A stretch of 63,621 bases of DNA, filler included. It is 6 parts of 6 records of this genome, joined end to end, with 100 filler letters (N's around TTAATTAATTAA, not from the genome) between each part and the next. Parts side by side here need not be neighbours in the genome. Positions count along the whole stretch, not along the records: positions 11,477 to 23,112 come from SRR31156797_8945; 5 more parts are not named here. One strand, 5' to 3'. The notes below the pieces were generated by a model. It was not told where the DNA came from and made no database searches. It was given only the letters and a program-made list of their open reading frames with translations. Made by a program: the position numbers and the translations under genes. Of this stretch, positions 10,575-52,554 are shown piece after piece; position 1 is the first letter of the stretch; each line of letters begins with the position of its first letter.

Positions 10575-11376
10575 TTATTTAATTGCCTGGAGACGGTTCC
10601 AGAGTGCTTCATCCCAGGGCATTTCCTTCTGGTTCTTCTTGTAAAACTCAGCTACTTTTTTACCCATGGCCTCTTTATCAACATCTTTTATGACAATGTT
10701 GCCTTGCTGTTCAAACCAGGCAACCAGCTCGGCCTCGGCACTTTCAATACTCTTGCTGATTTTGTCGCTCATTTCCAGCATGACCTGGGTGAAAATCTTC
10801 TGTTCTTCCTTGGAAAGACTGTTCCAGAGATGTCCGCCGGTAATGGTCACCAGGTTATCCTGCATGTGCTGGGTCAGGCATATATATTTCTGGACTTCAT
10901 AGAACTTCTTGAACTTGATAATGGTCAGGGGGTTTTCCTGTGCATCCACCACGCCCTGCTGCAGGGCCAGGTAGACTTCGGCAAAAGCAATGGGTGTCGG
11001 ATTGGCGTCTACCGCTTTTGGGAATATGCCGTAGGACGGGGCGTTGGGAATACGGATTTTCAGGTTTTTCATATCTTCGGGGGTCCGAACGGCCAGATCC
11101 GTGGTGGTCACGTTTCTGGAGCCATAATAGGAAGTGCAGAAAACATGGCTTCCCGTAATCTTTTCGTATTCATCCGCAAATTCCCGGAACAGGCTGCTCT
11201 TGGCGAATTTATAGAAATGATCCAGGTTCCTGAACACATACGGGTACGAGGAAATTGCCAGAGGGGCATAGGTCCTGCCGGTAAAAGCGGCCGATGTATG
11301 AACTATATCCACGGTCCCCAGGGTCAGGCCTTCATTGATATCCACTTCCTTCCCCAAGGAAGATGCCGGAAAGACC
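10575..11376 (-). CDS. dctP: TRAP substrate-binding protein DctP (5'-partial, cut by contig end)
   Basis: frame open to the contig edge (VFPASSLGKE); LKIRIPNA, EVYLALQQGVVDAQENP, KFYEVQKY. Confidence 0.9.
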
Positions 11377-11476
11377 NNNNNNNNNNNNNNNNNNNNNNNN
11401 NNNNNNNNNNNNNNNNNNNNTTAATTAATTAANNNNNNNNNNNNNNNNNNNNNNNNNNNNNNNNNNNNNNNNNNNN
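11377..11476. other. artificial contig-joining spacer
   Basis: 44 N + TTAATTAATTAA (stop codons in all six frames) + 44 N. Confidence 0.98.
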
Positions 11477-11851
11477 CAGGCCATACCTGTAAATGGCAGC
11501 CATTTCTTCTTTCAGGTTTCCGAACAGATAGGGCGCGCTTTCCAGCTCTCCCACAGGGACTGAGCCCATCTGGTAATCAGGATGCGTATGCCCCATCTGA
11601 AGCGTACCGGCCGCGACGGCGTCGCAAAGCTTTTCCACATTCACAAGTTCGCCGTCCGCAAAAACCTTAATATCGATTTCACCTTTGGTCATTTCTTTAA
11701 CGATTTTAGCATAGTGTTCAAAAAAGTGATTTTCAGCGGCACCCCATGAATGTTGCATTCTCCACTTTGTTCCGGCACTCGCTTGAAAGGAAAACGCTGT
11801 TACCATAAAAATTGCAAATGCCAATTTGACCAACCATTTTCTGGATTTCAT
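11477..11851 (-). CDS. TRAP substrate-binding protein, TakP-like (3'-partial)
   Basis: signal peptide, KWRMQHSW, MTKGEIDIKVFADGELV, DAVAAGTLQMGH; runs into the spacer; ATG at 11851, alternative TTG at 11860. Confidence 0.8.
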
Positions 11852-12047
11852 TTTTCCCAATCTCCTTTTTTAATGTGAACTGATCTATGTTTACGATAGT
11901 CTTGCCGCTTTCAGGCCGTCTCAACGTGACGGCCCGGTAAAGCCGACCCCTTAATATCTCATCGTCAGACTCATAAACGCCGGTATATAATTTTTATCTC
12001 CTTTTTCTCAGATTTGTCCATATTATACCCGTCTATGCAAGAATAAA

Positions 12048-12593
12048 TTACCCCATATAATTTACCGTACGCGGCACCCTGACGGCATCCTTGAGAATGA
12101 CAGAGGCAAGGTTGCGTCTTTTCTGGTCCGGCCTGCCATCGGCCTGGCGCTGTTTCATCTGCTGCCCCCGAAGCTTTTTGGAAACCTTATCTGCCTCTTT
12201 GAAAACCAGTGCACCGAAATTGCACTCACTGACACAAGCCGGGCTGCCGCCGCACAGATCGCATTTATACGGAATACCAGACGCATATTGCTCTATCATT
12301 CCGTACTGGCAGGCGGAGACACACTCTCCGCAGCCGGTGCATTTATTTACGTTCACGGCAATGACACCCCGGTCATTTTTAATGATGGCTTCTTCCGGGC
12401 AGGCCTTCATACAGTCTGCATTGGGGCACTGAAAACAGACACTGGGCACGGAGTACCCTTCATGGGGAAAGTTGTTGATTTTTATCCTGGCCTTTGAGGG
12501 AATGAACATCCCTTCCTTCACGGCGGAACAGGCATAGGAACATCTGTTGCAGCCGGTGCACCGGTTCGGGATAACCAAAAGTAACTTTTCCAT
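12048..12593 (-). CDS. 4x[4Fe-4S] electron-transfer subunit (AorA/DmsB/CooF-like)
   Basis: CTGCNRCSYAC, CFQCPNADCMKACP, CTGCGECVSACQ, KCDLCGGSPACVSEC. Confidence 0.9.
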   Translation of the reverse strand: MEKLLLVIPNRCTGCNRCSYACSAVKEGMFIPSKARIKINNFPHEGYSVPSVCFQCPNADCMKACPEEAIIKNDRGVIAVNVNKCTGCGECVSACQYGMIEQYASGIPYKCDLCGGSPACVSECNFGALVFKEADKVSKKLRGQQMKQRQADGRPDQKRRNLASVILKDAVRVPRTVNYMG

Positions 12594-12636
12594 TTATATT
12601 CTCCTTATCATCGGTATAATTTATTAACGGCCTGTG

Positions 12637-15600
12637 TTAGGCATCCAGAAGATCCAGTTCCGATAATTTTTCCTCACCGGGTATTCCGTTTTCATCCCAG
12701 CCCCTGATCCGGTATAAAAGTGTCTTCATCTGTTCAAGGGCATCCACATCAAACTTGCGGCCTTCGTGGGGCCCGTTTTCAAGTGCCTTTGTCAATATTT
12801 TTTGTGAAATGGTATCGTCGGAACCGGTAATACCCGCCTTTATATTGAATAGCTTGTTCAGGTTCCAGATCCGTTCCCCGGCCTTGTTCAGGTCCATGGC
12901 AGAGATCTTTTTACCCAGCCCCTTTGTAAGGAAATCCGCCATGATTTCTGTGTCAACGGTTCCCCAGAAATCACAGAGCCCCATGGAAAATTTGACCGCA
13001 TTCAAATTCTGGTTGTTCATCACGGCCCGGCTCATTTCTTTTACTTTAAAAGGTTCTTCTTCAAACAGGGTAAAGGACCGCAGGTGACACGCCCCTCTTT
13101 CGCTGGTGGCATATCCCAGGGCCATTCCGTAGTTTCCGCGGGGATCATAGGCCGGCATTTCAAGGTTTTTGGAATGGGCTGCCTTTTCCTCGGCATCGTG
13201 TTTGGCCGCCAACTTTTGGGCGCCCAATGCCAGGTCCTTCCCCCTTGGGGTGGACCGGGTGGCGATTTCTTCGATCAGGGAAAGAAATTCCTTGGTATCG
13301 CCGAATCTGATGCCGTAATCGTGGAGTTCGGACTCGGTGATATCCATTGCAAGTCCGATGATATTACCGGTGGACATGGTATCAAGGCCGAAATCGTCAC
13401 AGAGCCGGTTAAACTTCATTACCGTCTCAAGATCATCTATCTCGCAGTTTGATCCGCCCAGGCACAGGGTCTCGTATTCAGGCCCTTCCACACTGGTGCC
13501 GTTAATGGAGGTGAACTTGCCGCAGCCCATGGGGCATGAGGCGCAGGAACGGTCACCGATTTTCACATCATCAACCGCATCTGAGTTCAGGTTCTGGCGG
13601 CCGGAACTGACGCCTTTGGTGAAGTTCCGTGTGGGATGGATACCCATCTCATTGGTCACATCAACCAGAAGGGGAGTGCCATGGGTTTTTGCCCACATGT
13701 TATCGTCGGTCAGCAGGTTGCCATAAGTATGTTCGGCCACTTTTTCATAGAAAGAACCGATCTCATTGACCTGAACACCACCGGTTCCCCTGCAGACAAC
13801 CGCCTTTAAATTTTTAGATCCGAACAGGGCCCCGGCGCCGCCCCGCCCCATCTGGCGGTAAGATTCGGAACCGATGCAGGCGAAATCGATCAAATTTTCT
13901 CCGGCAGGTCCGATGGCAAGCGTCTTGGCCTCTGCATGGATTTCATTTTTCAGCCATTCCTCGGTTTCAAAAATGCCTTTTCCGGCCAGGACACCGGCAT
14001 CTTCCAGGGTAACGCTGTTGTTTTCAATCCTGAGATACACCGGACTCTTTGCTTTTCCGGTAATAAGGATCCCGTCATATCCGGCAAATTTCAATTCAGG
14101 CCCGAAAGATCCGCCGATGTTCGACTCAAATATGGTATTGGTTTTGGGTGATTTGGACACCAAACAGGTTCGAGATGATGTGGGCACCAGGGTGCCGCAT
14201 ACCGGGCCTGTCATGATGACAACGGCATTGTCTTCGGATAAGGGGTCGACTTTCGGGTCCACGGTATCGTACAGGTACTTGGTGGCAAGACCCCAGCCGC
14301 CGATATACTTTTCCCTCAGATCTTTGGGGATTGTCTTTGCCTGGATATCGTTTTTGCTCAGATCCACATGGAGCATCTGACCGGTATACAGATATTCGTC
14401 GGGCTTTCCTTTGGGAAGTTCAATGGATTTAAACACATCTTCAATCCGGTTCAGGGATTCGTCAAGAATTTCCCAGGGCACGTTCAGGGCCGGCTCAAAA
14501 CGGATATTTTTTGCATTTGTCAGGGTTCCGGCTGTGATCACCCCCCGTGAAAAAAGGCCGGAGGCCACTTTATAGCCGATGCCGTCCGTATGGAATTCCA
14601 TGCCCAGAAGAAGCCCTAAGCCCCGTTTCTTAGCCAGGATACCGGGATACCGCTCCTGGAGATCTCCCAGTTTTTCCAGGACATACTCACCCTTTTTCTT
14701 TGCCTGGCCAGCCAAATCCTCCTCAAGGAGAACCGAGATGGCGGCAAGGGCGGATGCACATGCCAGCGGGTTGCCGCCGGTGGTGGTGGTATGCATGAAG
14801 GGGTTGGGTTCCATGCACTGCCAGATTTCAGGGGTTGCCATGAATGCTGACATGGGCACGACGCCGCCGCCAAGGGCCTTGCCGAAGCACATGATATCCG
14901 GTTTAACCTCCCAATGATCCACACCAAACAATTCTCCGGTTCTGCCGAACCCGGTCTGGACTTCATCGCAGATCATCAATACCCCGTAATGATCACACAG
15001 CTCCCTTACGCCGGGAAGATAGTCGTCCGGCGGCACAATGGCACCGGCTTCCCCCTGGATGGGCTCAAGTACGATGGCGGCGATGTCATCGCCAACGGCT
15101 CTGGCCGAGGTCAGCTCCTGTTCCATGGCTTTTAAATCTCCGAAGGGCGCCTGGCGGATACCGTCGAGAAGGGGGAGGAGCGGTTTTCTGAAAACCTGTT
15201 TTCCCATGAGGGAAAGGGCGCCCAGGGATTTACCGTGAAAAGCCTTAAGCGTTGAAATAAACCCTTTCTTGCCGGTGTAAAGCTTGGCAAGCTTCATGGC
15301 CCCGTCCACGGCTTCCGTTCCGGAATTGGCAAAAAAACCGTACTGGATCTTACCCGGCGTCAACAGCGCCAGCACTTTTGCCAGCTGGGCCCGGAGGGGA
15401 TCCAGCATCTCCTGGCTGTACTGGGGAGACCGGTCCAGCTGGGATTTAACCGCGGCCACGATTTTAGGGTGACGGATACCGTAGGAGTAAAGCCCGAACC
15501 CGCCCAGCAGATCCAGAAACTGCCTGTCCAGGGCATCCACCAGAATAGATCCCTGGCCGGTCCATTCCGTTACGGCAAATCCGGTTGCCTCTGTGACGGA

Positions 15601-15801
15601 CTTTCTATAGTCAAGGAACCCCTTATTTATATGGTCTCGAAAATTGCGGACTGTTTTTTTAGATATGTCTTCTCTTGTTTTAAGAGAAATGTCTTCGGTC
15701 GGCATAGTGATGATATCAACGATATCATCAACTTCCTTTTTGGCTGATTTGATATCTCTTATTTTATAATCATCCGGATGATATTCTTCTGTATCGATCA
15801 T
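12637..15801 (-). CDS. putrescine aminotransferase (PatA/YgjG-like) fused to an aldehyde:ferredoxin oxidoreductase (AOR)
   Basis: aa 1-~460 PatA-like: FRDHINKGFLDYRKSVT, SGTEAV, FHGKSLG, DEVQTG, PLP lysine in PDIMCFGKALGGG, HTTTTGGNP; aa ~470-1054 AOR: YTGQMLHVDL, YIGGWG, IGPAGE, GRGGAGA, CASCPMGC, GPEYET, DDFGLD, ERGACH, GLCDF, RGWDENG. Confidence 0.9.
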   Translation of the reverse strand: MIDTEEYHPDDYKIRDIKSAKKEVDDIVDIITMPTEDISLKTREDISKKTVRNFRDHINKGFLDYRKSVTEATGFAVTEWTGQGSILVDALDRQFLDLLGGFGLYSYGIRHPKIVAAVKSQLDRSPQYSQEMLDPLRAQLAKVLALLTPGKIQYGFFANSGTEAVDGAMKLAKLYTGKKGFISTLKAFHGKSLGALSLMGKQVFRKPLLPLLDGIRQAPFGDLKAMEQELTSARAVGDDIAAIVLEPIQGEAGAIVPPDDYLPGVRELCDHYGVLMICDEVQTGFGRTGELFGVDHWEVKPDIMCFGKALGGGVVPMSAFMATPEIWQCMEPNPFMHTTTTGGNPLACASALAAISVLLEEDLAGQAKKKGEYVLEKLGDLQERYPGILAKKRGLGLLLGMEFHTDGIGYKVASGLFSRGVITAGTLTNAKNIRFEPALNVPWEILDESLNRIEDVFKSIELPKGKPDEYLYTGQMLHVDLSKNDIQAKTIPKDLREKYIGGWGLATKYLYDTVDPKVDPLSEDNAVVIMTGPVCGTLVPTSSRTCLVSKSPKTNTIFESNIGGSFGPELKFAGYDGILITGKAKSPVYLRIENNSVTLEDAGVLAGKGIFETEEWLKNEIHAEAKTLAIGPAGENLIDFACIGSESYRQMGRGGAGALFGSKNLKAVVCRGTGGVQVNEIGSFYEKVAEHTYGNLLTDDNMWAKTHGTPLLVDVTNEMGIHPTRNFTKGVSSGRQNLNSDAVDDVKIGDRSCASCPMGCGKFTSINGTSVEGPEYETLCLGGSNCEIDDLETVMKFNRLCDDFGLDTMSTGNIIGLAMDITESELHDYGIRFGDTKEFLSLIEEIATRSTPRGKDLALGAQKLAAKHDAEEKAAHSKNLEMPAYDPRGNYGMALGYATSERGACHLRSFTLFEEEPFKVKEMSRAVMNNQNLNAVKFSMGLCDFWGTVDTEIMADFLTKGLGKKISAMDLNKAGERIWNLNKLFNIKAGITGSDDTISQKILTKALENGPHEGRKFDVDALEQMKTLLYRIRGWDENGIPGEEKLSELDLLDA

Positions 15802-15835
15802 TTAGCTTAACCCTCCTTTGTGAATTGTCTTGAAA

Positions 15836-15876
15836 GGCAAAAATCAGACCGGCAAAAATCAAACCGGCAAAAACCG
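15836..15876. repeat. 15-bp tandem repeat, about 2.7 copies, intergenic
   Basis: GGCAAAAATCAGACC GGCAAAAATCAAACC GGCAAAAACCG. Confidence 0.8.
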
Positions 15877-15884
15877 TTTTTGCG

Positions 15885-17636
15885 TCAATCCCTTGGAATC
15901 CCCTCGGCATCCCATCCTCTGAGTTTATAGTAATCAGACACAAGCCTGTTCAGCTCGTCCCTGGTTATTCCCTTGTCGCCGGGCAGGGCCTGGTCAAAAA
16001 ACCGCGGCGGAAGGGTATCATCCTTCCTCGTCAGCCCTTCTCTCAGGTTATACCGCCGGGTATCGTCCTTGATCCGGTTGGAGATTCTTTCAAGATCTCC
16101 TCGTTGATACTGAACGCCGGTGGCAAGGAAGAGGCTTTTTGCCAACTCTTCCCAGGTATAAATGTCCCTGAAAAAACGGCAGAGGATCAGGGAATCAAAC
16201 AGGGTGCACCGGTTTTCAAAATCAATGAACAGTTCTGCTTTTCCCTCTATGGCATCAGGTGAAATCATCCCGGCCAGCTCCGGCTTGTAAAAGGTGGCGC
16301 GAAGGTGGCAGGCCCCGCGCTCACAAACGGCATAGGCAAGCCCCATTCCCTTTAACACCCTGGGATCGTACCCTGCCGGCTCCATGCCCTTGACATGGAC
16401 GGCCTCTTTTTCCATATTCAATTTCCGGGCGGCGTCTTTAATTCCTGAGGCCAGAATATCCCCCAGCCCCTGGCGGCGGGAGATGTCCTGGATAAGTGCG
16501 GCCGCGGCATCTGGGGAACCATAATCTATTTCAGACCTGATCCTGCCCTTCCGGGAGGCCTCCATGGCCAGCGCCACAAGATTTCCCGATGAGATCGTAT
16601 CAACACCGAGGCGGTCGCACAGTTCATTTAAATAGACGATCTCCTCAATGTCGTCTATCAGGCACAATCCGCCGAAGGCATACAGGGTCTCATACTCCGG
16701 TCCTTCAAGTGTGAGCCCTTTATGGCGTCCCCGGCCCACCCGTACGTTTTTGCCGCAGCCTAAAAAGCAGTCCATGCAGGCATGGGGCTGGGGATTGATC
16801 CGTTGGGCAATGGCCGGTGCATTAATTTTATCCTTTGTGGCCAGTTCCCCTTTGTTCCAGTATTCTGTCGGAAAGGCCCCGGCCTTGTTCATGATATCCA
16901 CCATCATGGGCGTACCCATTGTGCGGTAGGCATGAACCACCGGATCATCCTTCAGGCGGCGGAACATCTCTTTTTTATACTGCTTGATACCGGAAGGATC
17001 ATGAAATTGCCTTTTCCTGTCCCCGTGGCACACAATCCCTTTTATCTTTTTGGACCCCAGGACCGCTCCCATTCCCGTGCGGCCCGCCACCCGGTGTTTG
17101 TCGTTTTTGATAACCGCAAAGGCAACCAGGTTCTCTCCTGCAGGTCCGATGACCATGATCCCGGGCCGTTTTGCCTCAACCTTGTTTTTTAAAAGGGTCT
17201 CCGTTTCAAATGTATCTTTCCCCCACAGGTCCCGGGCATCATGAAAGACAACCGTTTCAGGCGTAATTTCCAGCCACAGGGGGGTGTCTGACGCCTCCCG
17301 TATGGTGATGATGTCAACACCTGTCCGGCTTAAGGGGGTGGCAAAACTTCCCCCGGAGTATGACTCGCCGTATCCGCCTGTCAAAGGGGATTTGGCAAAA
17401 ACACCGTACCGGCATGAGCCGAAAATCGAACTTCCCGAAAAAGGGCCTGCCGCGATCAGCAATTGATTATCAGGCCCCAGGGGATCAACACCTGAAGGGC
17501 AGTTTTCCAGCATTAAACGGGTGGCAAGACCTTTCCCCCCCAGGGTTTCGCGGACAAGGTCCCTGTCCAGATCCTCATAAAAGAAAGCCTTTTTACAAAC
17601 GTCGACGATCAGGTGCCTATAAAAAAAACCTTTCAT
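15885..17636 (-). CDS. aldehyde:ferredoxin oxidoreductase family protein (stand-alone AOR)
   Basis: LGGKGLA, KSPLTG, IGPAGE, AGRTGMGAVLGSK, CMDCFLGC, GPEYET, DRLGVD, ERGACH, RGWD; start MKGFFY at 17636, just after the gabT stop. Confidence 0.9.
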   Translation of the reverse strand: MKGFFYRHLIVDVCKKAFFYEDLDRDLVRETLGGKGLATRLMLENCPSGVDPLGPDNQLLIAAGPFSGSSIFGSCRYGVFAKSPLTGGYGESYSGGSFATPLSRTGVDIITIREASDTPLWLEITPETVVFHDARDLWGKDTFETETLLKNKVEAKRPGIMVIGPAGENLVAFAVIKNDKHRVAGRTGMGAVLGSKKIKGIVCHGDRKRQFHDPSGIKQYKKEMFRRLKDDPVVHAYRTMGTPMMVDIMNKAGAFPTEYWNKGELATKDKINAPAIAQRINPQPHACMDCFLGCGKNVRVGRGRHKGLTLEGPEYETLYAFGGLCLIDDIEEIVYLNELCDRLGVDTISSGNLVALAMEASRKGRIRSEIDYGSPDAAAALIQDISRRQGLGDILASGIKDAARKLNMEKEAVHVKGMEPAGYDPRVLKGMGLAYAVCERGACHLRATFYKPELAGMISPDAIEGKAELFIDFENRCTLFDSLILCRFFRDIYTWEELAKSLFLATGVQYQRGDLERISNRIKDDTRRYNLREGLTRKDDTLPPRFFDQALPGDKGITRDELNRLVSDYYKLRGWDAEGIPRD

Positions 17637-17637
17637 C

Positions 17638-18942
17638 CTAGCGCTCCAGTTCGTGGAAACTTTCTTCCAGTATGGCCAGCCCTCTTTCCAGCTCCTCATC
17701 AGAGATGACAAAGGGCATCAGGGTCCGGATGACATTTCCGAAATTACCGCAGGAAAGAATGATCAATCCTTTTTCATAGCAGAGCCGAACCAGTTTTTTG
17801 GCCTCTTCGGCAGCAGGTTCCCTGGTCTCCCTGTCCTTTACCAGCTCCATGCCCAGCATGGGGCCTTTTCCCCTGACGTCACCGATGATTTCAAACTGAT
17901 GGGCAAGGGTTGTAAACCGGTCCCAAAGGATCTTTCCAAGGGATTCAGCCTTGGACAAAAGATTGTCTTCAATCAGGATGTCCAGCACGGCCAGGGCTGC
18001 GGCACAGGAGACCGGGTTGCCGCCGTAGGTTCCGCCCAGGCCGCCGACATGGGGTTTATCCATCAGATCTGAACGGCCGGTGACGGCGCTTAAAGGCATG
18101 CCGCCTGCAAAACTTTTTGCCAGGGTGATCATATCCGGTTCAACACCCCAGTGCTCAATGGCGAAGAACTTTCCTGTTCTTCCCGCACCGGCCTGAATTT
18201 CATCAATGATCAGGGGAATGTCGTATTTTTCACATATGGTTTTCAGCCTGGGGAAATATTCCGGGGGCGGGGTGATGAACCCGCCCTCTCCCTGGATGGG
18301 TTCTGCGATGACGGCAGCCGTATTCTCAGGGGCGACATTGCCGATGAAAAAGTCTTCCAGATGGTCTGCGCAGGCGGTATTGCAGGCAGGATATTTCAAA
18401 TTAAACGGACAGCGGTAACAATAGGCATAGGGCATTCTGTATATTTCAGGTACAAAGGGCCCGAAATTCAACTTGTAAGGTTTAACTTTACTGGTCAGGC
18501 TCATGGCCATCTGGGTACGTCCGTGAAAGGCATTCTCAAAACAGATGATCCCTGTTCTCTTTGTGGCATATCTGGCTATTTTAACGGCATTTTCCACGGC
18601 TTCGGCCCCGGAATTGGCAAACATCGTCATCTTGTCAAAATTACCGGGGGCAAGGGCGTTTAATTTTTCCGCAAGCTCCACATAGGGTTCATACATGGCC
18701 ACATGAAAGCAGGTATGGATATACGATTCTGCCTGATCCGCTATGGCCTTTACAACTTTCGGATGGCTGTGGCCGACGTTGTTGACGCCGATACCGCCTG
18801 CAAAATCGATATACGTCTTCCCGTCCACATCCGTCATACTTGCCCCTTGAGCCCTCTTAATGAACGCAGTGGTGGTATTAAAAGGACCCTGGGGAATATT
18901 TTTGTTTCTTCGTTCGATGAGCTCGCAGCTTAGCGACGACAT
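17638..18942 (-). CDS. gabT: 4-aminobutyrate--2-oxoglutarate transaminase
   Basis: DFAGGIGVNNVGH, HTCFHV..YEPY, NSGAEAVENAVKIAR, EPIQGEGGF, AKSFAGG, GGLGGTYGGNP. Confidence 0.9.
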   Translation of the reverse strand: MSSLSCELIERRNKNIPQGPFNTTTAFIKRAQGASMTDVDGKTYIDFAGGIGVNNVGHSHPKVVKAIADQAESYIHTCFHVAMYEPYVELAEKLNALAPGNFDKMTMFANSGAEAVENAVKIARYATKRTGIICFENAFHGRTQMAMSLTSKVKPYKLNFGPFVPEIYRMPYAYCYRCPFNLKYPACNTACADHLEDFFIGNVAPENTAAVIAEPIQGEGGFITPPPEYFPRLKTICEKYDIPLIIDEIQAGAGRTGKFFAIEHWGVEPDMITLAKSFAGGMPLSAVTGRSDLMDKPHVGGLGGTYGGNPVSCAAALAVLDILIEDNLLSKAESLGKILWDRFTTLAHQFEIIGDVRGKGPMLGMELVKDRETREPAAEEAKKLVRLCYEKGLIILSCGNFGNVIRTLMPFVISDEELERGLAILEESFHELER

Positions 18943-18967
18943 AATAGTCTCCCAAAATAATTGAGTA

Positions 18968-19009
18968 CGGCTGTTCCAGCCCGGCTGTTTCAGCCCGGCC
19001 GTTCCAGCC
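18968..19009. repeat. three tandem 14-bp units, each a GGCTG-N3-CAGCC mini-palindrome, in the gabT leader
   Basis: CGGCTGTTCCAGCC CGGCTGTTTCAGCC CGGCCGTTCCAGCC. Confidence 0.85.
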
Positions 19010-19103
19010 TATTTATGCAGCAAGTTTGATTTTTGTCGATTTTGCCGATTTGATGGCTTGACTTTGCAATATCAAATCGACGAGACGACCCCTATCGACC
19101 CAA

Positions 19104-19130
19104 ATAATACTATTAATATTCGATTGTCAA
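19104..19130 (-). promoter_or_regulatory. possible sigma70 promoter of the gabT operon
   Basis: minus strand TTGACA - 15 nt - TATTAT; the spacing is short, so this is tentative. Confidence 0.4.
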
Positions 19131-19320
19131 CCATTATTTCCATATTCACGTACGAAAACATCACTTTTGTATGTTAAAATCGAATATTCGAAATTCGAAC
19201 TTGTTTTCCAATCCCCTGCCGTGCTAATACGTCAATTAACAGACCGCCGTGTCAGAGACTGACAAAATAATGGCCTAAAAATTTCTTTTAAACCCTGTTA
19301 CAAAATTATTGAGGTGATTT

Positions 19321-19770
19321 TTGAATTTAAATGTCGATGATATTGATGCCCAAATTATAAAAATACTGAATGCAGACGGCAGAACCCGCAATACGGAAAT
19401 TGCAAAACAACTGAACTTATCGGAAACAGCCATCCGGAAACGGATTAAGAAACTTCTTGATGATGAAGTGATTCAAATCGTAGCCGTTATCAACCAGGAA
19501 AAACTGGGATATATAATCGGAGGCAATATAAAAATTAAAACCGACATCAAAAAAACGGATGTGGTGATCAACAACCTGAACAACCTGGAAGGAATCTGGT
19601 ACATTGCCCAGCTTACCGGGGCCTACGACTTTGATGTGGAATTCAGGGCAAGATCCAATGAAGAGCTCAATAAATTGATCCAGAAAATCAATTTAACCGA
19701 AGGCGTTCTGGAAACCCACGTATCCTTCCGGCTCAAGTTAATCAGGAACCGGAACGACTGGGAAAAATAG
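19321..19770 (+). CDS. Lrp/AsnC family transcriptional regulator
   Basis: DDIDAQIIKILNADGR..IAKQLNLSETAIRKRIKKL HTH; TGAYDF in the RAM domain; TTG start with GAGGTG RBS; divergent from gabT. Confidence 0.92.
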   Translation: MNLNVDDIDAQIIKILNADGRTRNTEIAKQLNLSETAIRKRIKKLLDDEVIQIVAVINQEKLGYIIGGNIKIKTDIKKTDVVINNLNNLEGIWYIAQLTGAYDFDVEFRARSNEELNKLIQKINLTEGVLETHVSFRLKLIRNRNDWEK

Positions 19771-19832
19771 AATGACCGGCACTGGCGGATCAACCTGCCG
19801 ATCATGGAATTAGCAGATAAAAACGGCCGAAA

Positions 19833-22790
19833 ATGAAACCGACACCAATGAATCAAAAATCGTCTCGGTACAAAGTATTCCATAAACTGATGCAGAAAAA
19901 AGTCAGGCAGATCCTCCTGGTCTCCACCTCCTATGAGGCCTGGGTTCTGGAGGAGGACGGCCGGCTTTCAGAGCAGATTACAAACGAATATAAGGGGTTG
20001 AATCTAAGCCACCCCCCGCAGTTGAACTGGGTTTCCTCCCTACCCTGCGCCCTGGAACAAATTGAGCATACCCGGTATGACCTTGTGATCATCATCAGCC
20101 GCACCATAGACACCAAGGTGTATGAAACAGGAGCCCGGATCAAAGACAAAGCCCGGGACATGCCTGTGGTCGTATTGTCTCATCAGGAATCCCCGCCTGA
20201 AAACCATACCCGGTTTCACGCCATGTCCTCGCATATTGACCAGATTTTTTTCTGGTCCGGGGATGCCGGTATCCTGCTGGCCATTATCAAGTGTATCGAA
20301 GACCGGATGAATGTATTTGATGACACCCGCCGTGCAGGCATCAGGGTGATCATCTTTGTTGAAGATTCACCGTTTTACCGGTCATCCATCCTGCCGATCT
20401 TATACAAAGAGCTGGTGGTAGAGACCCAGGCGGTCATTGATGACGGCCTGAACGAGGAACACAGGATCCTGTATATGCGTGCCCGTCCCAAAATCCTTTT
20501 GGCCGGATCATACGAGCAGGCCAAAAGGTTATACGAACAATTCAAACCCTATGTCCTGGGCGTAATCTCCGATGTAAGATTTCCCTCAAACGGCGGTATT
20601 GATGCCAAAGCCGGGCTTAAACTTCTCCGCTACATTAAAGGGGATCGATTTGACATCCCCTTGCTCCTGGCCAGTTCCGAACCGGAAAATGCCCTGCCGG
20701 CATCAAAAATCCCTGCGGTTTTCATCGATAAAAACGCCCGGACCCTCAGAGAAAAAATCGCAGCCTTCCTTATGGACCATCTCGGATTCGGATCTTTTAT
20801 CTTCAAGCTGCCCGACGGTCGGAAAATAGGAACGGCAACCGACCTGTATACCCTTGAACAGCAGCTGCGGACCATTCCGGATGAGTCTTTTGTATTTCAC
20901 TGCCAATGCAATGATTTTTCCAGGTGGTTGTTTTCCCTTGCTGAAGTCGAACTGGCATCAAGACTGAGGCCCCTGAGGAATACCGATTTCAAAAGTGTCG
21001 AAAACCACAGGCAGCACCTGATCAGTCTCATCCAACACCATCGGAAAAACCGCTTAAAAGGGGTTATTGTAGACTTTGACCCGGACAGGTTCGATCCGGA
21101 CACAAACTTTTCCAAAATAGGGAAAGGCTCCCTGGGGGGTAAAGCCAGGGGGCAGGCCTTTATATCATCCCTGCTGAACAGATCCCCTGAACTGTTGCAG
21201 GAGGCTGAAACCGTGGATATCTTCGTCCCCCAGACCCTTGTGGTCACCACCCAAGGATTTGACACCTTTATCCGGATGAACCGTTTTGAAAATTTCGTTC
21301 TGGAAGACAATAGCGATGACGTCATTGCAGACCGGTTTATGGCGGCGGATTTTCCGGAACCGCTCCGTTCAAAACTTGCGGCATATCTTAAGACCATAGG
21401 CTACCCTCTGGCCGTCAGGTCGTCCAGCCTTTTGGAAGATGCGCAATTCAAGCCCTATGCCGGATTATACAGCACCTATTTCCTTGCCAATGACCATGAA
21501 GACCTTGACTGCCGTGTCAACCAGCTGGTCGATACCATCAAGATGGTATATGCCTCCACGTATTTCAAGGCACCAAAGGCCTTCTCCGCCAGTGTGGGAA
21601 ACAGGATGGAAAATGAGAAAATGGCTGTCATCATTCAGCAGGTGGTTGGCCGCCGTTACCAAGACTCTTTTTATCCCGCCGTCTCCGGTGTTGCCCAGTC
21701 AACAAATTACTACCCGTTTTCAAAAATGAAGCCTGAAGACGGGGTTGTCAGCATGGCAATGGGGCTGGGTAAGGCTGTAATGGAAGGGGAAAGAACTTTG
21801 CGCTGCTGCCCGCGGTTCCCCGGGATCCTGCCTGACCGCTCGACCATTGAGGACATCCTGGAAAACGCTCAGCATGAATTCTACACCCTGAGAATGAACG
21901 ATCCGGAATGCCGTATCGGAATGAACCAAGCGGTCACCCTTGAAAAAAAAGAGATTTATGCGGCAAAACACCATGATGTGGTGCCGCTTCTGACCAGCAC
22001 CTATTTTCCCCAGGACAACCGCATCCGGGATATTTCCTCTTCATCCGGCTATCCGGTACTGACCTTTGCCCCACTGCTGAAACAGAGGCGGTATCCGTTC
22101 CTGAGCATCATTACCAAATTGCTTGACACGGCAAAAAACGAGTTCGGATGCCCTGTTGAAATGGAATTTGTCCTGGATCTGCCCTCAAATAGTAATGCAG
22201 CGGCCGGATTTGCAGTGGTCCAGGTCCGTCCCATGAGTGCAAAGCAAGACACTGCCGACATCCATATCACCGATAAAGAGAAAACCTTGGCATTCTGCCT
22301 TTCGCATATGGCTTTGGGAAACACGGCTGATGATAAAATAAGGGATGTGGTATACGTCAGGCCCGATAATTTTGATCCCGCTAGAACAAAAGAAATTGCA
22401 GATGAGATTTCCGGGATCAACGCCTCATTAAAGAGGGCAGGCAGAAAATACATACTCATCGGACCGGGACGGTGGGGATCTTCAGACCCCTGGCTGGGCA
22501 TCCCGGTAAACTGGGAAGCCATCAGTCATGCGGGATCCATTGTTGAAGCAACCCATCCTTTGATAAAAGCCGATCCCTCCCAGGGATCCCATTTTTTCCA
22601 TAACATCATTGCCCTTGGGATCAATTATCTCACCCTGGTTGACGGCCCCTCCGACCGCATGGATTACGGACATCTCAACGGTTTGGAGCGCATCTGCTCA
22701 ACCCGGCATGTGATCCATGCCAGATCATCTTCCGGCCTTATCCTTAAAGTCGACGGCCGAAAAGGTATCGGAGTCCTCTATGAAACCTGA
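19833..22790 (+). CDS. PEP synthase/PPDK nucleotide-binding-domain protein with receiver-like N-terminus
   Basis: GSLGGKARG, PLAVRSSSLLED, YAGLYST, EKMAVIIQ, PVEMEF, VQVRP, IGPGRWGSSDPWLGIPV, PSQGSHFFHN; no phospho-His swivel domain or PEP-binding barrel recognised. Confidence 0.8.
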   Translation: MKPTPMNQKSSRYKVFHKLMQKKVRQILLVSTSYEAWVLEEDGRLSEQITNEYKGLNLSHPPQLNWVSSLPCALEQIEHTRYDLVIIISRTIDTKVYETGARIKDKARDMPVVVLSHQESPPENHTRFHAMSSHIDQIFFWSGDAGILLAIIKCIEDRMNVFDDTRRAGIRVIIFVEDSPFYRSSILPILYKELVVETQAVIDDGLNEEHRILYMRARPKILLAGSYEQAKRLYEQFKPYVLGVISDVRFPSNGGIDAKAGLKLLRYIKGDRFDIPLLLASSEPENALPASKIPAVFIDKNARTLREKIAAFLMDHLGFGSFIFKLPDGRKIGTATDLYTLEQQLRTIPDESFVFHCQCNDFSRWLFSLAEVELASRLRPLRNTDFKSVENHRQHLISLIQHHRKNRLKGVIVDFDPDRFDPDTNFSKIGKGSLGGKARGQAFISSLLNRSPELLQEAETVDIFVPQTLVVTTQGFDTFIRMNRFENFVLEDNSDDVIADRFMAADFPEPLRSKLAAYLKTIGYPLAVRSSSLLEDAQFKPYAGLYSTYFLANDHEDLDCRVNQLVDTIKMVYASTYFKAPKAFSASVGNRMENEKMAVIIQQVVGRRYQDSFYPAVSGVAQSTNYYPFSKMKPEDGVVSMAMGLGKAVMEGERTLRCCPRFPGILPDRSTIEDILENAQHEFYTLRMNDPECRIGMNQAVTLEKKEIYAAKHHDVVPLLTSTYFPQDNRIRDISSSSGYPVLTFAPLLKQRRYPFLSIITKLLDTAKNEFGCPVEMEFVLDLPSNSNAAAGFAVVQVRPMSAKQDTADIHITDKEKTLAFCLSHMALGNTADDKIRDVVYVRPDNFDPARTKEIADEISGINASLKRAGRKYILIGPGRWGSSDPWLGIPVNWEAISHAGSIVEATHPLIKADPSQGSHFFHNIIALGINYLTLVDGPSDRMDYGHLNGLERICSTRHVIHARSSSGLILKVDGRKGIGVLYET

Positions 22791-23112
22791 AAAAAGGACT
22801 GGATATAACATCCGGCAATCAGGTAAACAGACCACATAATTACGAATGTCATTAAAGTATCAGAACCCGGCTTCACTGGTCGTCATCACTTGGATAATAC
22901 ATCATGTGCACAAAACTGGGTTTGATTCGAAAAAACCGCCCTCTGTCTGTAAGAGCCCCGATTTTGGGTTTTAGGCCCACCACAATCATGGGGCCGGTCT
23001 GTCCGGCCATCCCACCCCGGTGAGGATGAGATCGTATTCTATACAGACCTTTGGATGGGAGAGGACACCGGCCGGAGGGGCAGCGGTTTCCCCTGCCGGC
23101 ACCAGGCCCGGC

Positions 23113-23212
23113 NNNNNNNNNNNNNNNNNNNNNNNNNNNNNNNNNNNNNNNNNNNNTTAATTAATTAANNNNNNNNNNNNNNNNNNNNNNNNNNNNNNNN
23201 NNNNNNNNNNNN
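23113..23212. other. artificial contig-joining spacer
   Basis: N44-TTAATTAATTAA-N44. Confidence 0.98.
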
Positions 23213-35173: not shown

Positions 35174-35273
35174 NNNNNNNNNNNNNNNNNNNNNNNNNNN
35201 NNNNNNNNNNNNNNNNNTTAATTAATTAANNNNNNNNNNNNNNNNNNNNNNNNNNNNNNNNNNNNNNNNNNNN
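35174..35273. other. artificial contig-joining spacer
   Basis: N44-TTAATTAATTAA-N44. Confidence 0.98.
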
Positions 35274-41491: not shown

Positions 41492-41517
41492 AATACCTCC
41501 TCGGACAGGGGAACGGT

Positions 41518-41548
41518 AAAAAAACGGGCGGCCCCAGGCCGCCCGTTT
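41518..41548 (-). terminator. intrinsic terminator after the ABC substrate-binding protein gene
   Basis: AAACGGGCGGCC-CCA-GGCCGCCCGTTT next to an A-run, which is a U-run on the minus strand. Confidence 0.75.
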
Positions 41549-41594
41549 ATGATTTTTTTCAACACCTTTCAGGAAAAAAACAAAAAAAACGCCC

Positions 41595-49463: not shown

Positions 49464-49526
49464 TTATTTCTCCTTTTCGACCATATTGCACTCATCCCTG
49501 CTTGGACCTCAGCCGAACGCCTTTCC

Positions 49527-51008: not shown

Positions 51009-51063
51009 GGGTTCTCCTTAATTGGATTCTTTCAATCGGATTTTTTTTCTGAAAGGCGGTCGT

Positions 51064-51591: not shown

Positions 51592-51670
51592 GGCATTTGT
51601 CTCCTGATCCTGGTTGTAACATCCATGTCGCCACCTCTTTTACACCTTGGGCCCGGCCCTTTTAACCGTC

Positions 51671-52454: not shown

Positions 52455-52554
52455 NNNNNNNNNNNNNNNNNNNNNNNNNNNNNNNNNNNNNNNNNNNNTT
52501 AATTAATTAANNNNNNNNNNNNNNNNNNNNNNNNNNNNNNNNNNNNNNNNNNNN
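52455..52554. other. artificial contig-joining spacer
   Basis: N44-TTAATTAATTAA-N44. Confidence 0.98.

What the first reader, a model, noticed from the sequence alone, without database searches (positions are those of the whole stretch)
11477..19770. Candidate undescribed anaerobic polyamine catabolic pathway built on aldehyde:ferredoxin oxidoreductases
Seen: the operon gabT - AOR - patA::AOR - 4x[4Fe-4S] subunit - TRAP SBP, divergent from an Lrp/AsnC regulator. Known: in E. coli, putrescine goes via PatA, PatD, GabT and GabD to succinate, and both aldehyde steps are NAD(P)-dependent. Inference: here each transaminase is paired with a W/Mo-pterin AOR, giving putrescine to 4-aminobutanal to GABA to succinic semialdehyde to succinate (or cadaverine to 5-aminovalerate to glutarate). 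Electrons would be captured at ferredoxin potential through the AorA-like subunit, which is more valuable to a sulfate reducer than NADH. No aldehyde dehydrogenase gene is present in the cluster. I know of no description of this route.
Basis: partly seen in the sequence, partly recalled or inferred. Interest (0 to 1): 0.9.

Follow-up and report, generated by a model that had tools for sequence, protein, structure and literature searches.

The report
Tungsten-type aldehyde oxidoreductases in polyamine breakdown operon
A marine sulfate-reducer relative carries an operon that most likely burns agmatine or putrescine to succinate, using two ferredoxin-linked aldehyde oxidoreductases, one fused to the putrescine aminotransferase, in place of the usual NAD-dependent aldehyde dehydrogenases.

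Summary
On one 11.6-kb contig piece (11477-23112) the minus strand encodes a GABA transaminase, an AOR, a 1054-aa putrescine-aminotransferase::AOR fusion, a 16-Cys AorA/WorS-type subunit and the start of a TRAP binding protein. An Lrp/AsnC gene lies divergent. No aldehyde dehydrogenase is present.

Two corrections. The window is concatenated contigs, so the TRAP gene is cut at 11477 and the DctP piece beyond the linker is a different gene. AOR1 probably starts at ATG 17636.

Of 80 related loci:
- PatA is fused to an AOR in 44, followed by another AOR clade in 14, and followed by a PatD-type aminobutyraldehyde dehydrogenase in 11.
- GabT is followed by AOR1 in 18 of 35 cases and by an SSADH-like dehydrogenase in 4.
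- Agmatine deiminase, N-carbamoylputrescine amidase, agmatinase and PotABCD-like or TRAP transporters flank these genes.

All 12 named putrescine-site residues of E. coli YgjG and the AOR cofactor and catalytic residues are conserved. None of five fusion-bearing genomes has a PatD orthologue.

Nine literature searches found no description. This scan has noted the same theme before on other DNA (Chloroflexota, Bacillota). New here are the widespread covalent fusion and a TRAP binding protein that lacks the carboxylate-binding arginine. No biochemical evidence exists.

The parts
17638..18942 (-). gabT-like 4-aminobutyrate:2-oxoglutarate transaminase (434 aa)
   Evidence: Pfam Aminotran_3 at 5e-135. 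TIGR00700 scores 554.3 bits against a cut-off of 506.65. Top PDB hits are GABA transaminases, including E. coli GabT 1sf2 at 419.8 bits.
15885..17636 (-). AOR1: stand-alone aldehyde:ferredoxin oxidoreductase (583 aa from ATG 17636). Proposed succinic-semialdehyde oxidising enzyme.
   Evidence: AFOR_N + AFOR_C. PDB hits 9mqx_D and 1aor at about 1e-104. Thr243, Glu313, Tyr427, His448 and the four cluster Cys are conserved in alignment A2. Start read. It is the next gene after GabT in 18 of 35 GabT instances.
14407..15801 (-). PatA (putrescine aminotransferase) domain of the fusion, residues 1-465
   Evidence: NF008570 scores 641.5 bits against a cut-off of 612. E. coli YgjG 4uox scores 479 bits, against 251 for the next non-PatA chain and about 218 for acetylornithine aminotransferases. 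All 12 named YgjG active-site and entrance residues are identical (alignment, residues from PMC4244111). 11 of the 12 are invariant in 12 fusion homologues; position 102 is Phe in 10 and Tyr in 2.
12637..14406 (-). AOR2 domain of the fusion, residues 466-1054. Proposed 4-aminobutanal oxidising domain.
   Evidence: AFOR_N + AFOR_C. 9mqx_D at 2.6e-130 and PfAOR 1aor at 3.7e-119. Thr243, Glu313, Tyr427, His448 and Cys288/291/295/494 equivalents are present and invariant in A1. One open frame with the PatA domain in 44 of 80 loci.
12048..12593 (-). AorA/WorS-type small subunit with four [4Fe-4S] motifs (181 aa)
   Evidence: 16 Cys in four Cys4 motifs. Fer4 families. Best PDB hits 8c0z_C (AOR Fe-S subunit, 6.3e-29), 9mqx_E, 6x6u_B. 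It follows the fusion in 42 of 44 fused loci.
11477..11860 (-). 5' part (128 codons; likely start ATG 11850) of a DctP-family TRAP solute-binding protein, cut by the contig end
   Evidence: DctP profile positions 14-85. 94% identical to the start of the full-length gene in L001. In L001 it is followed by dctQ, dctM, aguA and aguB.
18943..19320 (.). 378-nt AT-rich divergent intergenic region between gabT and lrp (presumed promoters and operators)
   Evidence: GC 0.41. Sequence read. No Rfam family. No convincing consensus promoter found there.
19321..19770 (+). Lrp/AsnC-family regulator, divergent from the operon
   Evidence: HTH_AsnC-type + AsnC_trans_reg. The same divergent arrangement, at 64-85% identity, occurs in L002-L007 and L010.
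11377..11476 (.). Artificial contig linker (N44-TTAATTAATTAA-N44), not biology
   Evidence: The DNA run X1 has a contig that begins exactly at 11477 (table 8).

Best explanation
The operon encodes an anaerobic, ferredoxin-linked version of the transaminase route for agmatine and putrescine catabolism.

Proposed steps:
1. Agmatine or putrescine is imported. In this lineage the importer is a TRAP system whose binding protein lacks the carboxylate-binding arginine. In other lineages a PotABCD-like ABC system sits at the same position.
2. Agmatine is converted to putrescine by AguA and AguB. These genes lie just beyond the contig end in the nearest relatives.
3. The PatA domain of the 1054-aa fusion transaminates putrescine to 4-aminobutanal.
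4. The covalently attached AOR domain oxidises 4-aminobutanal to GABA. Electrons pass through its own [4Fe-4S] cluster and the four-cluster AorA/WorS subunit to ferredoxin.
5. GabT converts GABA to succinic semialdehyde.
6. AOR1, which is translationally coupled to gabT, oxidises succinic semialdehyde to succinate.

Shown here: gene identities, conserved residues, conserved linkage, positional displacement of PatD and SSADH by AORs, and absence of a PatD orthologue in five fusion-bearing genomes.

Inferred: which aldehyde each AOR oxidises, ferredoxin as the acceptor, tungsten as the metal, induction by amines, and the idea that the fusion exists to capture 4-aminobutanal before it cyclises to 1-pyrroline. 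Succinic semialdehyde cannot cyclise, which would fit GabT and AOR1 staying separate.
For: **Gene identities**
- PatA domain: NF008570 scores 641.5 against a cut-off of 612. GabT: TIGR00700 scores 554.3 against 506.65.
- YgjG is by far the best PDB hit for the PatA domain (479 bits).
- All 12 YgjG residues named for putrescine binding or the entrance are identical: F91, Q119, F180, K183, E243, Q274, K300, F327, T332, Y402, L419, R426.
- Both AORs keep Thr243, Glu313, Tyr427, His448 and the four cluster Cys. These residues are named in PMC13328260, section 5.
- The Fe-S subunit has 16 Cys. Its best PDB hits are AOR Fe-S subunits.

**Context in 80 related loci, taken from one genome per species**
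- PatA is fused to an AOR in 44, followed by AOR3 in 14, followed by PatD in 11, and split as PatA-SpeB-AOR2-FeS in 2. PatD is above the NF010000 cut-off in two checked examples.
- GabT's next gene is AOR1 in 18 of 35 cases and an SSADH-like ALDH in 4.
- AguA is present in 36 of 80, AguB in 36, agmatinase in 7, PotA and PotD in 37 each, and the TRAP binding protein in 6. The L001 AguA and AguB are above equivalog cut-offs.
- Of 33 fused loci with at least 3 kb after the Fe-S gene, 23 carry agmatine genes and 28 carry a transporter.
- Nearest relative L001 (95% identical fusion): gabT-AOR1-fusion-FeS-TRAP PQM-aguA-aguB.

**Genome-wide and phylogenetic checks**
- None of 5 fusion-bearing large genomes has a hit above the cut-off for aminobutyraldehyde dehydrogenase. 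The best is 457.7 against 615. The E. coli control passes.
- AOR1, AOR2 and AOR3 are three separate clades, each at 100 support on a FastTree of 100 rows. This points to repeated recruitment.

**Weak support**
- A marine-sediment RNA library holds short contigs, 90-99% alike, on 23 of 30 bins of the operon. Such a library can also contain DNA.
Against: - There are no biochemical, genetic or growth data for any member.
- The window's own contig ends inside the TRAP gene. aguAB and dctQM are inferred from relatives, and no whole genome is held.
- AORs are typically broad in substrate range, so linkage does not fix which aldehyde each one takes.
- One of five fusion-bearing genomes (G002) also has an SSADH above the cut-off elsewhere on its chromosome (734.5 bits). 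All five have generic ALDHs.
- AOR1-type genes are not directly behind GabT in 10 of the 28 loci that hold one.
- 10 of 33 well-flanked fused loci show no agmatine gene within the fetched flank.
- The loci were fetched through patterns in the PatA domain, and only the best 80 of 157 were kept. The proportions are therefore not population estimates.
- The fused family is one 50%-identity cluster, so the fusion is probably a single event inherited by many.
- Most RNA contigs are only 90-95% alike (53 of 79), so they come from relatives.
Confidence: 0.72

Rival explanations
1. The same enzyme logic applies, but the physiological substrates are cadaverine and 5-aminovalerate from lysine, giving glutarate. 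The neighbouring CoA-transferase would then activate glutarate.
For: YgjG accepts cadaverine as well as putrescine (PMC4244111, passages read). A two-subunit family-I CoA-transferase lies beside GabT-AOR1 or AguAB in 10-11 of 80 loci, with an SDR in 4. Its substrate is unknown.
Against: AguA, AguB and agmatinase make putrescine, not cadaverine. They are the commonest accessory genes (45 of 80 loci carry at least one). GabT passes the GABA-transaminase equivalog cut-off. No lysine decarboxylase or glutaryl-CoA dehydrogenase was seen in the flanks.
Confidence: 0.1
2. The AORs are general aldehyde scavengers that merely sit beside amine-catabolic genes. The pathway aldehydes are oxidised by unlinked NAD(P)-dependent ALDHs.
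For: Characterised class I WORs are broad aldehyde detoxifiers (PMC13328260 abstract). All five tested genomes have 2-8 generic ALDH hits, and one has an SSADH above the cut-off.
Against: A covalent PatA::AOR fusion is conserved across at least 120 90%-identity clusters and 44 species-level loci. That is hard to explain by chance neighbourhood. AOR occupies exactly the slot that PatD or SSADH occupies in sister operons. None of 5 genomes has a PatD orthologue.
Confidence: 0.08
3. The module acts on another omega-amine, for example 3-aminopropanal from spermidine or norspermidine cleavage, beta-alanine, or taurine or hypotaurine. Putrescine would not be the substrate.
For: Saccharopine-dehydrogenase-like genes, distantly like carboxynorspermidine synthase, occur in 6 of 80 loci. 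The P. furiosus class II WOR is active on taurine (PMC13328260 section 9). The ligand of the TRAP binding protein is unknown.
Against: All 12 putrescine-site residues of YgjG are conserved. The agmatine-to-putrescine genes dominate the context.
Confidence: 0.06
4. The AORs run in reverse, as carboxylate reductases, to make amino-aldehydes and diamines. The module would be biosynthetic.
For: AORs can reduce acids in some organisms (abstract of PMC10816221, listed).
Against: The context is uptake transporters plus hydrolytic agmatine-degrading enzymes and repressor-type regulators. PatD-type catabolic dehydrogenases occupy the same slot in sister operons.
Confidence: 0.02

Closest known systems
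E. coli putrescine transaminase pathway (PatA/YgjG, PatD/YdcW, GabT or PuuE, GabD or Sad)
   Same: It has the same two aminotransferases. The PatA domain is above the NF008570 cut-off with all 12 named YgjG site residues identical, and GabT is above the TIGR00700 cut-off. The order of chemistry is the same: putrescine, 4-aminobutanal, GABA, succinic semialdehyde, succinate.
   Different: Both NAD(P)-dependent aldehyde dehydrogenases are missing from the contig, and AOR-family enzymes sit in their places. One AOR is fused to PatA. A four-cluster Fe-S subunit is added. The electron acceptor is presumably ferredoxin.
Agmatine deiminase route (AguA, AguB, with a TetR-type AguR in Pseudomonas; the regulator is recalled, not checked)
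   Same: AguA and AguB, above equivalog cut-offs, follow the transporter in the nearest relatives. A TetR gene precedes the fusion in 26 of 44 fused loci.
   Different: These genes are not visible in the window itself because the contig ends. This lineage uses an Lrp/AsnC regulator instead of TetR. The downstream oxidation is AOR-based.
Class II tungsten oxidoreductases (WorL + WorS; P. furiosus ASOR/WOR5, C. bescii GOR) and Aromatoleum aromaticum AorABC (PDB 8c0z)
   Same: There is a large pterin subunit with AFOR_N and AFOR_C plus an adjacent small subunit with four [4Fe-4S] motifs. The best PDB hits of both subunits are such complexes. The class definition was read in PMC13328260 section 9.
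   Different: The large subunit carries an N-terminal PLP aminotransferase domain. No AorC-type FAD/NAD subunit was found nearby. The proposed physiological substrates are an amino-aldehyde and a semialdehyde of polyamine catabolism. I found this in none of the paper's abstract, sections 5 and 9, or its term hits.
AOR in anaerobic phenylalanine catabolism of Aromatoleum aromaticum (Debnar-Daumler et al. 2014; seen only as a reference in PMC12041015)
   Same: A tungsten AOR oxidises an aldehyde that arises from an amino compound after transamination. It acts alongside or instead of an NAD-dependent dehydrogenase.
   Different: The substrate there is phenylacetaldehyde. There is no fusion, no polyamine genes and no dedicated operon with the aminotransferase.
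Fermentative putrescine and GABA degradation in strict anaerobes (Clostridium aminobutyricum-type route via 4-hydroxybutyrate; recalled from memory, not checked here)
   Same: It is anaerobic catabolism that begins with the same transaminations.
   Different: That route reduces succinic semialdehyde to 4-hydroxybutyrate and proceeds through CoA esters. It uses pyridine-nucleotide enzymes and no AOR.

Membership tests
Putrescine transaminase pathway (PatA-PatD-GabT-GabD) | PatA-type putrescine:2-oxoglutarate aminotransferase | tested here: met
   NF008570 scores 641.5 against a cut-off of 612. YgjG 4uox scores 479 bits. All 12 of 12 named site residues are identical.
Putrescine transaminase pathway (PatA-PatD-GabT-GabD) | NAD(P)-dependent 4-aminobutyraldehyde dehydrogenase (PatD/YdcW) | tested here: not met
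   No Aldedh gene lies on 11477-23112. None of 5 fusion-bearing genomes has a hit above the NF010000 cut-off. The window's own genome could not be searched.
Putrescine transaminase pathway (PatA-PatD-GabT-GabD) | GABA transaminase | tested here: met
   TIGR00700 scores 554.3 against a cut-off of 506.65. PDB hits are GABA transaminases.
Putrescine transaminase pathway (PatA-PatD-GabT-GabD) | NAD(P)-dependent succinate-semialdehyde dehydrogenase (GabD/Sad) | tested here: not met
   It is absent from the contig. In related fusion-bearing genomes, 1 of 5 has one above the TIGR01780 cut-off elsewhere.
AOR / tungsten oxidoreductase (WOR) family | AFOR_N plus AFOR_C domains | tested here: met
   Both AORs match at E <= 1e-67 for each domain.
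AOR / tungsten oxidoreductase (WOR) family | Four Cys for the [4Fe-4S] cluster, and Thr243, Glu313, Tyr427, His448 (PfAOR numbering) | tested here: met
   The fusion was aligned to 1aor. AOR1 and AOR3 were aligned to the fusion. The positions are invariant in 12 fusion homologues. Positions were counted by hand on the printed alignment.
AOR / tungsten oxidoreductase (WOR) family | Tungsten (or molybdenum) bis-pyranopterin cofactor and aldehyde-oxidising activity | not testable with these tools
   This needs metal analysis and enzyme assays.
Class II WOR (WorL + WorS) | Adjacent small subunit with four [4Fe-4S] clusters | tested here: met
   The 181-aa protein has 16 Cys in four motifs. Best PDB hits are AOR Fe-S subunits. 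It is adjacent in 42 of 44 fused loci.
Class II WOR (WorL + WorS) | Ferredoxin as electron carrier | not testable with these tools
   This is inferred from the class definition in PMC13328260 section 9.
DctP-type TRAP transporter for organic acids | DctP-family binding protein | tested here: met
   PF03480 matches the window fragment. NF037995 matches the full-length L001 orthologue.
DctP-type TRAP transporter for organic acids | Conserved arginine equivalent to SiaP Arg-147 that binds the ligand carboxylate | tested here: not met
   The window gene is cut before this position. In 5 of 5 full-length orthologues (L001, L003, L006, L012, L032) the position is Asn. It aligns to Arg in 5 of 5 printed PDB alignments, which cover four distinct proteins. 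The significance comes from PMC4646407.
Agmatine deiminase pathway | AguA and AguB in the operon | tested here: inconclusive
   They are not on the window's contig, which ends. They are present directly after the TRAP genes in L001, L003, L006, L010 and L032. The L001 copies are above the TIGR03380 and TIGR03381 cut-offs.

The most novel reading that the evidence does not exclude
The PatA::AOR polypeptide with its four-cluster subunit is a single channelling machine, a putrescine:ferredoxin oxidoreductase (deaminating). It joins PLP and pyranopterin chemistry, captures 4-aminobutanal before it cyclises, and delivers electrons at ferredoxin potential. With GabT-AOR1 this would make polyamines an energy-rich, tungsten-dependent substrate for marine sulfate reducers.

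Three separate AOR clades would thereby gain a physiological role. In addition, the arginine-less TRAP system beside aguAB would be the first TRAP importer of a cationic amine such as agmatine or putrescine.
Probability: 0.4. Interest if true: 0.8.

Novelty: new variant of a known kind. Interest (0 to 1): 0.66.

Why it matters
Polyamines and agmatine are abundant nitrogen-rich products of decaying biomass in anoxic sediments. How strict anaerobes such as sulfate reducers oxidise them has hardly been worked out.

If the reading is right, several things follow.
- Both aldehyde steps yield low-potential electrons instead of NAD(P)H, which changes the energy yield of the pathway.
- Polyamine turnover becomes dependent on tungsten or molybdenum supply.
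- Three clades of the AOR/WOR family gain a defined physiological function. A 2026 survey states that only five of 92 clades have one (PMC13328260 abstract).
- A natural PLP-aminotransferase::pyranopterin-oxidoreductase fusion becomes a tractable model for substrate channelling of an unstable amino-aldehyde.
- The TRAP binding protein without the carboxylate-binding arginine would widen the known substrate range of TRAP transporters.

Tried and rejected
- **Whole-genome search of the window's own assembly.** Not possible, because none is held.
- **Crude ORF calling and clustering of the 80 loci.** It gave usable families but also antisense artefacts (cluster 7) and merged the aminotransferase and AOR families through the fusion. 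I replaced it with tblastn against named representatives.
- **Promoter and terminator scan.** It found 16 promoter-like sites against 8.6 +/- 2.6 expected. None was convincing in the divergent region on the operon strand. Terminator-like sites were at the chance level (11 against 11.9). No conclusion was drawn.
- **Sigma-54 -24/-12 motif.** I thought I saw one in the intergenic region. It does not fit the canonical spacing. The pattern scan found 5 sites in the window, none in the region, with 4.45 expected by chance.
- **Rfam on 11477-23112.** No family found.
- **Literature.** Searches found no paper linking AOR or tungsten enzymes with putrescine, aminobutyraldehyde, agmatine or class-III aminotransferases. 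Searches were swamped by unrelated papers because I allowed partial term matches. PMC5320631 and PMC13713477 held the terms in unrelated contexts.
- **Supplements of the WOR classification paper.** The three files held as text (46,045 characters) contain no aminotransferase term. Its large gene-neighbourhood dataset may not be held, so the fusion could be listed there unseen.
- **Structure prediction and complex prediction.** Not run. The outputs on offer (confidence values only) would not show an inter-domain channel. The AOR and Fe-S pair would pass by likeness to solved complexes.
- **RNA evidence.** Only one RNA run held a small share (0.08) of the words. The absence of RNA contigs on 18956-19770 is not interpreted.

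Full report
**What is in the window.**

The 63,621-base window is not one piece of DNA. Five linkers of the form N44-TTAATTAATTAA-N44 join six contig pieces. The finding lies on the piece 11477-23112.

On its minus strand, Pfam and NCBIfam identify five genes.
- A class-III aminotransferase at 17638-18942. It passes the equivalog cut-off for 4-aminobutyrate transaminase (TIGR00700, 554.3 bits against 506.65). Its 14 PDB hits at E <= 1e-90 are named 4-aminobutyrate transaminases (or hypothetical ones) except one generic PLP-dependent aminotransferase.
- An aldehyde:ferredoxin oxidoreductase, AOR1. The listed ORF is 15885-17711. Homologues align only from residue 26, and an ATG at 17636 sits one base after the gabT stop behind a GGAG. 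The two genes are therefore probably translationally coupled.
- One 1054-aa open frame at 12637-15801. It holds Aminotran_3, AFOR_N and AFOR_C.
- A 181-aa protein at 12048-12593 with 16 cysteines in four Cys4 motifs.
- The first 128 codons of a DctP-family TRAP binding protein, cut by the contig end at 11477.

An Lrp/AsnC regulator (19321-19770) is divergent across a 378-nt AT-rich spacer. No aldehyde dehydrogenase family gene is on this piece.

The DctP fragment on the other side of the linker (10575-11357) overlaps the same profile positions. It is followed by a fused DctQM. It is a different gene, and its adjacency is an artefact of concatenation.

**Identity of the parts.**

The aminotransferase domain of the fusion passes the NCBIfam equivalog for putrescine aminotransferase (NF008570, 641.5 bits against 612). 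It does not reach the stricter TIGR03372 cut-off (502 against 659).

Its best PDB match is E. coli YgjG/PatA at 479 bits. The next non-PatA chain (4ppm) scores 251 bits, and acetylornithine aminotransferases score about 218.

I took the residues named in the YgjG structure paper (PMC4244111; passages read). I counted them on the printed alignment. All twelve are identical in the fusion: Phe91, Gln119, Phe180, Lys183, Glu243, Gln274, Lys300, Phe327, Thr332, Tyr402, Leu419 and Arg426. Eleven are invariant in twelve fusion homologues; position 102 is Phe in ten and Tyr in two. This argues against an ornithine or acetylornithine enzyme.

The fused AOR domain aligns end to end with P. furiosus AOR (1aor, 3.7e-119) and with 9mqx_D (2.6e-130). 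It keeps Cys288, Cys291, Cys295 and Cys494 and also Thr243, Glu313, Tyr427 and His448. The 2026 WOR classification paper names those four residues as conserved in aldehyde-oxidising members (PMC13328260 section 5).

AOR1 is only 35% identical to the fused domain. It keeps the same positions.

The best PDB hits of the small subunit are the Fe-S subunits solved together with AORs: 8c0z_C, 9mqx_E and 6x6u_B. In the terms of that paper, the fusion plus small subunit is a Class II WOR (WorL+WorS, ferredoxin-linked; section 9) with an extra N-terminal PLP domain. AOR1 has no small subunit of its own.

**Related loci.**

The fusion is not a one-off. All 120 best listed relatives in the 5.8-billion-protein collection carry all three Pfam domains, at 68-93% identity. 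Most are about 1054 aa. The names that sources give point to Desulfobacula, Desulfotignum, Desulfosarcina and other Desulfobacterales.

At 50% clustering, only one full-length fused representative appears among the best 150. The family is a single, fairly tight clade.

A scan of one genome per species gave 157 confirmed places, of which the best 80 were kept. I annotated them by tblastn with the window's proteins and with representatives of recurrent neighbours. Those representatives were identified by Pfam and NCBIfam.

What follows PatA in the 80 loci:
- fused in frame to an AOR in 44;
- a different AOR clade (AOR3) as the next gene in 14;
- a PatD-type aminobutyraldehyde dehydrogenase as the next gene in 11, with NF010000 at 625.6 and 647.8 bits against a cut-off of 615 in the two examples checked;
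- the split order PatA-agmatinase-AOR2-FeS in the two Desulfacinum loci;
- cut by the contig end in 2;
- a transporter or aguB in the remaining 7.

What follows GabT-like genes with an intact 3' end, 35 instances:
- AOR1 in 18;
- PatA in 5;
- an aldehyde dehydrogenase whose best family is succinate-semialdehyde dehydrogenase in 4, of which L071 is above the TIGR01780 cut-off and L050 and L051 are below their best model's cut-off;
- PotA in 3;
- nothing within 400 nt in 5.

So the AORs occupy exactly the slots that the two NAD(P)-dependent dehydrogenases of the E. coli pathway occupy in sister operons. Some Desulfovibrionaceae are hybrids. L048 and L049 have GabT-AOR1 and PatA-PatD in one cluster.

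**Accessory genes.**

Accessory genes point to the substrate. Counts over all 80 loci are.

| Gene | Loci |
|---|---|
| Agmatine deiminase | 36 |
| N-carbamoylputrescine amidase | 36 |
| Agmatinase | 7 |
| PotA-like ATPase | 37 |
| PotD-like binding protein | 37 |
| TRAP binding protein of the window's type | 6 |
| TetR regulator | 38 |
| Lrp | 15 |

At least one agmatine gene is present in 45 loci. The L001 AguA and AguB copies are above their equivalog cut-offs. The Pot-like hits are below theirs, although polyamine transporters are their best matches.

Among the 33 fused loci with at least 3 kb after the Fe-S gene, 23 have agmatine genes and 28 have a transporter.

In the nearest relative (L001, fusion 95% identical) the order is gabT-AOR1-fusion-FeS-TRAP P, Q, M-aguA-aguB. 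This is very probably how the window's contig continues.

**Genome-wide and phylogenetic checks.**

In five large assemblies that carry the fusion, no hit reaches the cut-off of the aminobutyraldehyde dehydrogenase family. The best is 457.7 bits against 615. E. coli passes in the control set.

One of the five has a succinate-semialdehyde dehydrogenase above its cut-off, far from the locus. Replacement of that step is therefore not absolute.

On a FastTree of 100 AOR sequences (78 from the loci and window, 22 unrelated background AORs), AOR1, AOR2 and AOR3 each form one side of a branch with support 100. The 41 fused domains form a clade that excludes the two unfused Desulfacinum AOR2 genes, when the tree is rooted on a background leaf. 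This fits a single fusion event from a split ancestor, and three independent recruitments of AORs to this pathway. FastTree joins long branches readily, so the deep placements are not to be trusted.

**The transporter.**

The TRAP transporter looked like a problem for a polyamine reading. DctP-type binding proteins normally hold a ligand carboxylate with a conserved arginine. The Arg-147 equivalent is present in 96.8% of the family. A member that lacks it binds ethanolamine (PMC4646407, passages read).

The window's gene is cut before that position. In all five full-length orthologues the K-x-R position reads Asn. It aligns to Arg in all five printed PDB alignments, which cover four distinct proteins because 4nap and 4pgn are near-identical. 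The coordinate offset to SiaP points to the same residue.

This clade of binding proteins sits directly before aguA-aguB in five of six loci. It takes the place that a PotABCD-like system has elsewhere. An amine ligand such as agmatine or putrescine is therefore plausible. This is inference.

**Mechanism proposed.**

1. Agmatine is converted to N-carbamoylputrescine by AguA.
2. N-carbamoylputrescine is converted to putrescine by AguB.
3. Putrescine is converted to 4-aminobutanal by the PatA domain, with 2-oxoglutarate as acceptor.
4. 4-aminobutanal is oxidised to GABA by the fused AOR domain, with electrons passing through WorS to ferredoxin.
5. GABA is converted to succinic semialdehyde by GabT.
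6. Succinic semialdehyde is oxidised to succinate by AOR1.

Gene identities, conserved residues, linkage and displacement are shown. The substrate of each AOR, the acceptor, the metal and the regulation are inferred.

A rationale for the asymmetry is that 4-aminobutanal cyclises spontaneously to 1-pyrroline, whereas succinic semialdehyde cannot. This is established chemistry, recalled here. Only the first pair would then gain from being fused, across a linker of about ten residues.

Fusions of class-III aminotransferases with NAD-type aldehyde dehydrogenases also exist (P0187 and P0220). Joining the two activities is therefore a recurrent solution.

**Weak evidence of expression.**

One marine-sediment RNA library holds short contigs on 23 of 30 bins of the region. 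Of 79 contigs, 3 are at least 99% alike, 23 are 95-99% alike and 53 are 90-95% alike. Most come from relatives, and an RNA library can contain DNA. This is only a hint.

**Novelty.**

Nine literature searches found no paper that links AOR or tungsten enzymes with putrescine, aminobutyraldehyde, agmatine or class-III aminotransferases. The tenth search was for the TRAP arginine.

The 2026 WOR classification says that only five of 92 clades have a defined physiological role (abstract). It does not mention aminotransferases in its main text or in the three supplement files held as text. Its large neighbourhood dataset may not be among these. Subscription journals are not searched.

Earlier notes of this scan describe the same theme on other DNA. 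They cover Chloroflexota, Dehalococcoidia and Bacillota operons with aminotransferases next to AORs. One note mentions fusions in other anaerobes. These are unchecked AI notes and not independent evidence. They do mean that the idea is not new to this scan.

What this window adds:
- the Desulfobacterota case;
- the widespread covalent PatA::AOR fusion with its WorS partner;
- the slot-for-slot displacement table, and the absence of PatD in five fusion-bearing genomes;
- the arginine-less TRAP binding protein.

I class it as a new variant of a known kind. The transaminase route is known. The aldehyde-oxidising enzymes, the fusion and the electron acceptor are new.

**Limits.**

- There is no experiment.
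- The window's genome is not available.
- The loci were chosen through patterns in the PatA domain and cut to the best 80 of 157.
- Identity thresholds for calling each neighbour were mine.
- Residue positions were counted by hand on printed alignments.

Noticed in passing
window 11377-11476, 23113-23212, 35174-35273, 52455-52554, 58185-58284: The window is six contig pieces joined by N44-TTAATTAATTAA-N44 linkers. Gene neighbourhoods must not be read across these points. The TRAP SBP C-terminal piece (10575-11357), fused DctQM (8590-10509) and UxaA-type dehydratase (7046-8575) belong to another contig and another transport system.
   Followed up: yes
L001:6808-7839 (orthologue of window 11477-11860); also L003, L006, L012, L032: This clade of DctP-type TRAP binding proteins has Asn where solved DctP proteins have the carboxylate-binding Arg-147 equivalent. 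It sits directly before aguA-aguB in five of six loci. It is a candidate TRAP importer for a cationic amine such as agmatine or putrescine.
   Followed up: partly
window 19833-22790 (+): A 985-aa protein lies 63 nt after lrp. It has a PPDK_N (PEP-utilising, ATP-grasp) domain in its C-terminal half and a weak DUF5752 match. A 59% identical homologue lies after PatA-AOR3-NhaC-AguB in L072. Weaker ones (26-28%) lie in L061 and L064. It is absent from the nearest relatives L002-L004. Its function and any link to the pathway are unknown.
   Followed up: partly
L006, L010, L015, L020, L024, L027-L029, L032, L034, L069: A two-subunit family-I CoA-transferase recurs next to GabT-AOR1 or AguAB, in 10-11 of 80 loci, with an SDR dehydrogenase in 4. 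It might activate the succinate (or glutarate) product. The substrate is unknown.
   Followed up: no
proteins P0187 (989 aa) and P0220 (672 aa): These are fusions of an aldehyde dehydrogenase domain with a class-III aminotransferase. P0187 also has an N-terminal cyclic-nucleotide-binding domain. They are the NAD-type counterpart of the PatA::AOR fusion.
   Followed up: partly
proteins P0132 (992 aa) and P0172 (832 aa): These are AORs fused at the C-terminus to an OMP-decarboxylase/HUMPS-family domain, which is hexulose-phosphate-synthase-like. This may be a link between an AOR and formaldehyde or sugar-phosphate chemistry.
   Followed up: no
window 18965-19012: Upstream of gabT the spacer holds about three tandem copies of a roughly 13-nt motif (GGCTGTTCCAGCC-like). 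It may be an operator for the Lrp-type regulator or a chance repeat.
   Followed up: no
L007:79-6022 and L007:13397-19340: The PotA-PotBC-PotD-AguA-AguB block appears twice, with identical identity values, about 13.3 kb apart in this MAG contig. This is probably an assembly duplication, such as a wrapped repeat, rather than biology.
   Followed up: no
window 2066-7049 (-) and 48315-52387 (-): There are two clusters with FAD_binding_4/FAD-oxidase_C proteins next to CCG/Fer4 iron-sulfur proteins. They look like hydroxyacid or lactate dehydrogenases. One has a LarA-like protein. The other lies beside an acyl-CoA ligase, a branched-chain-type ABC transporter and a flavin amine-oxidase-like protein (39998-41659).
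   Followed up: no
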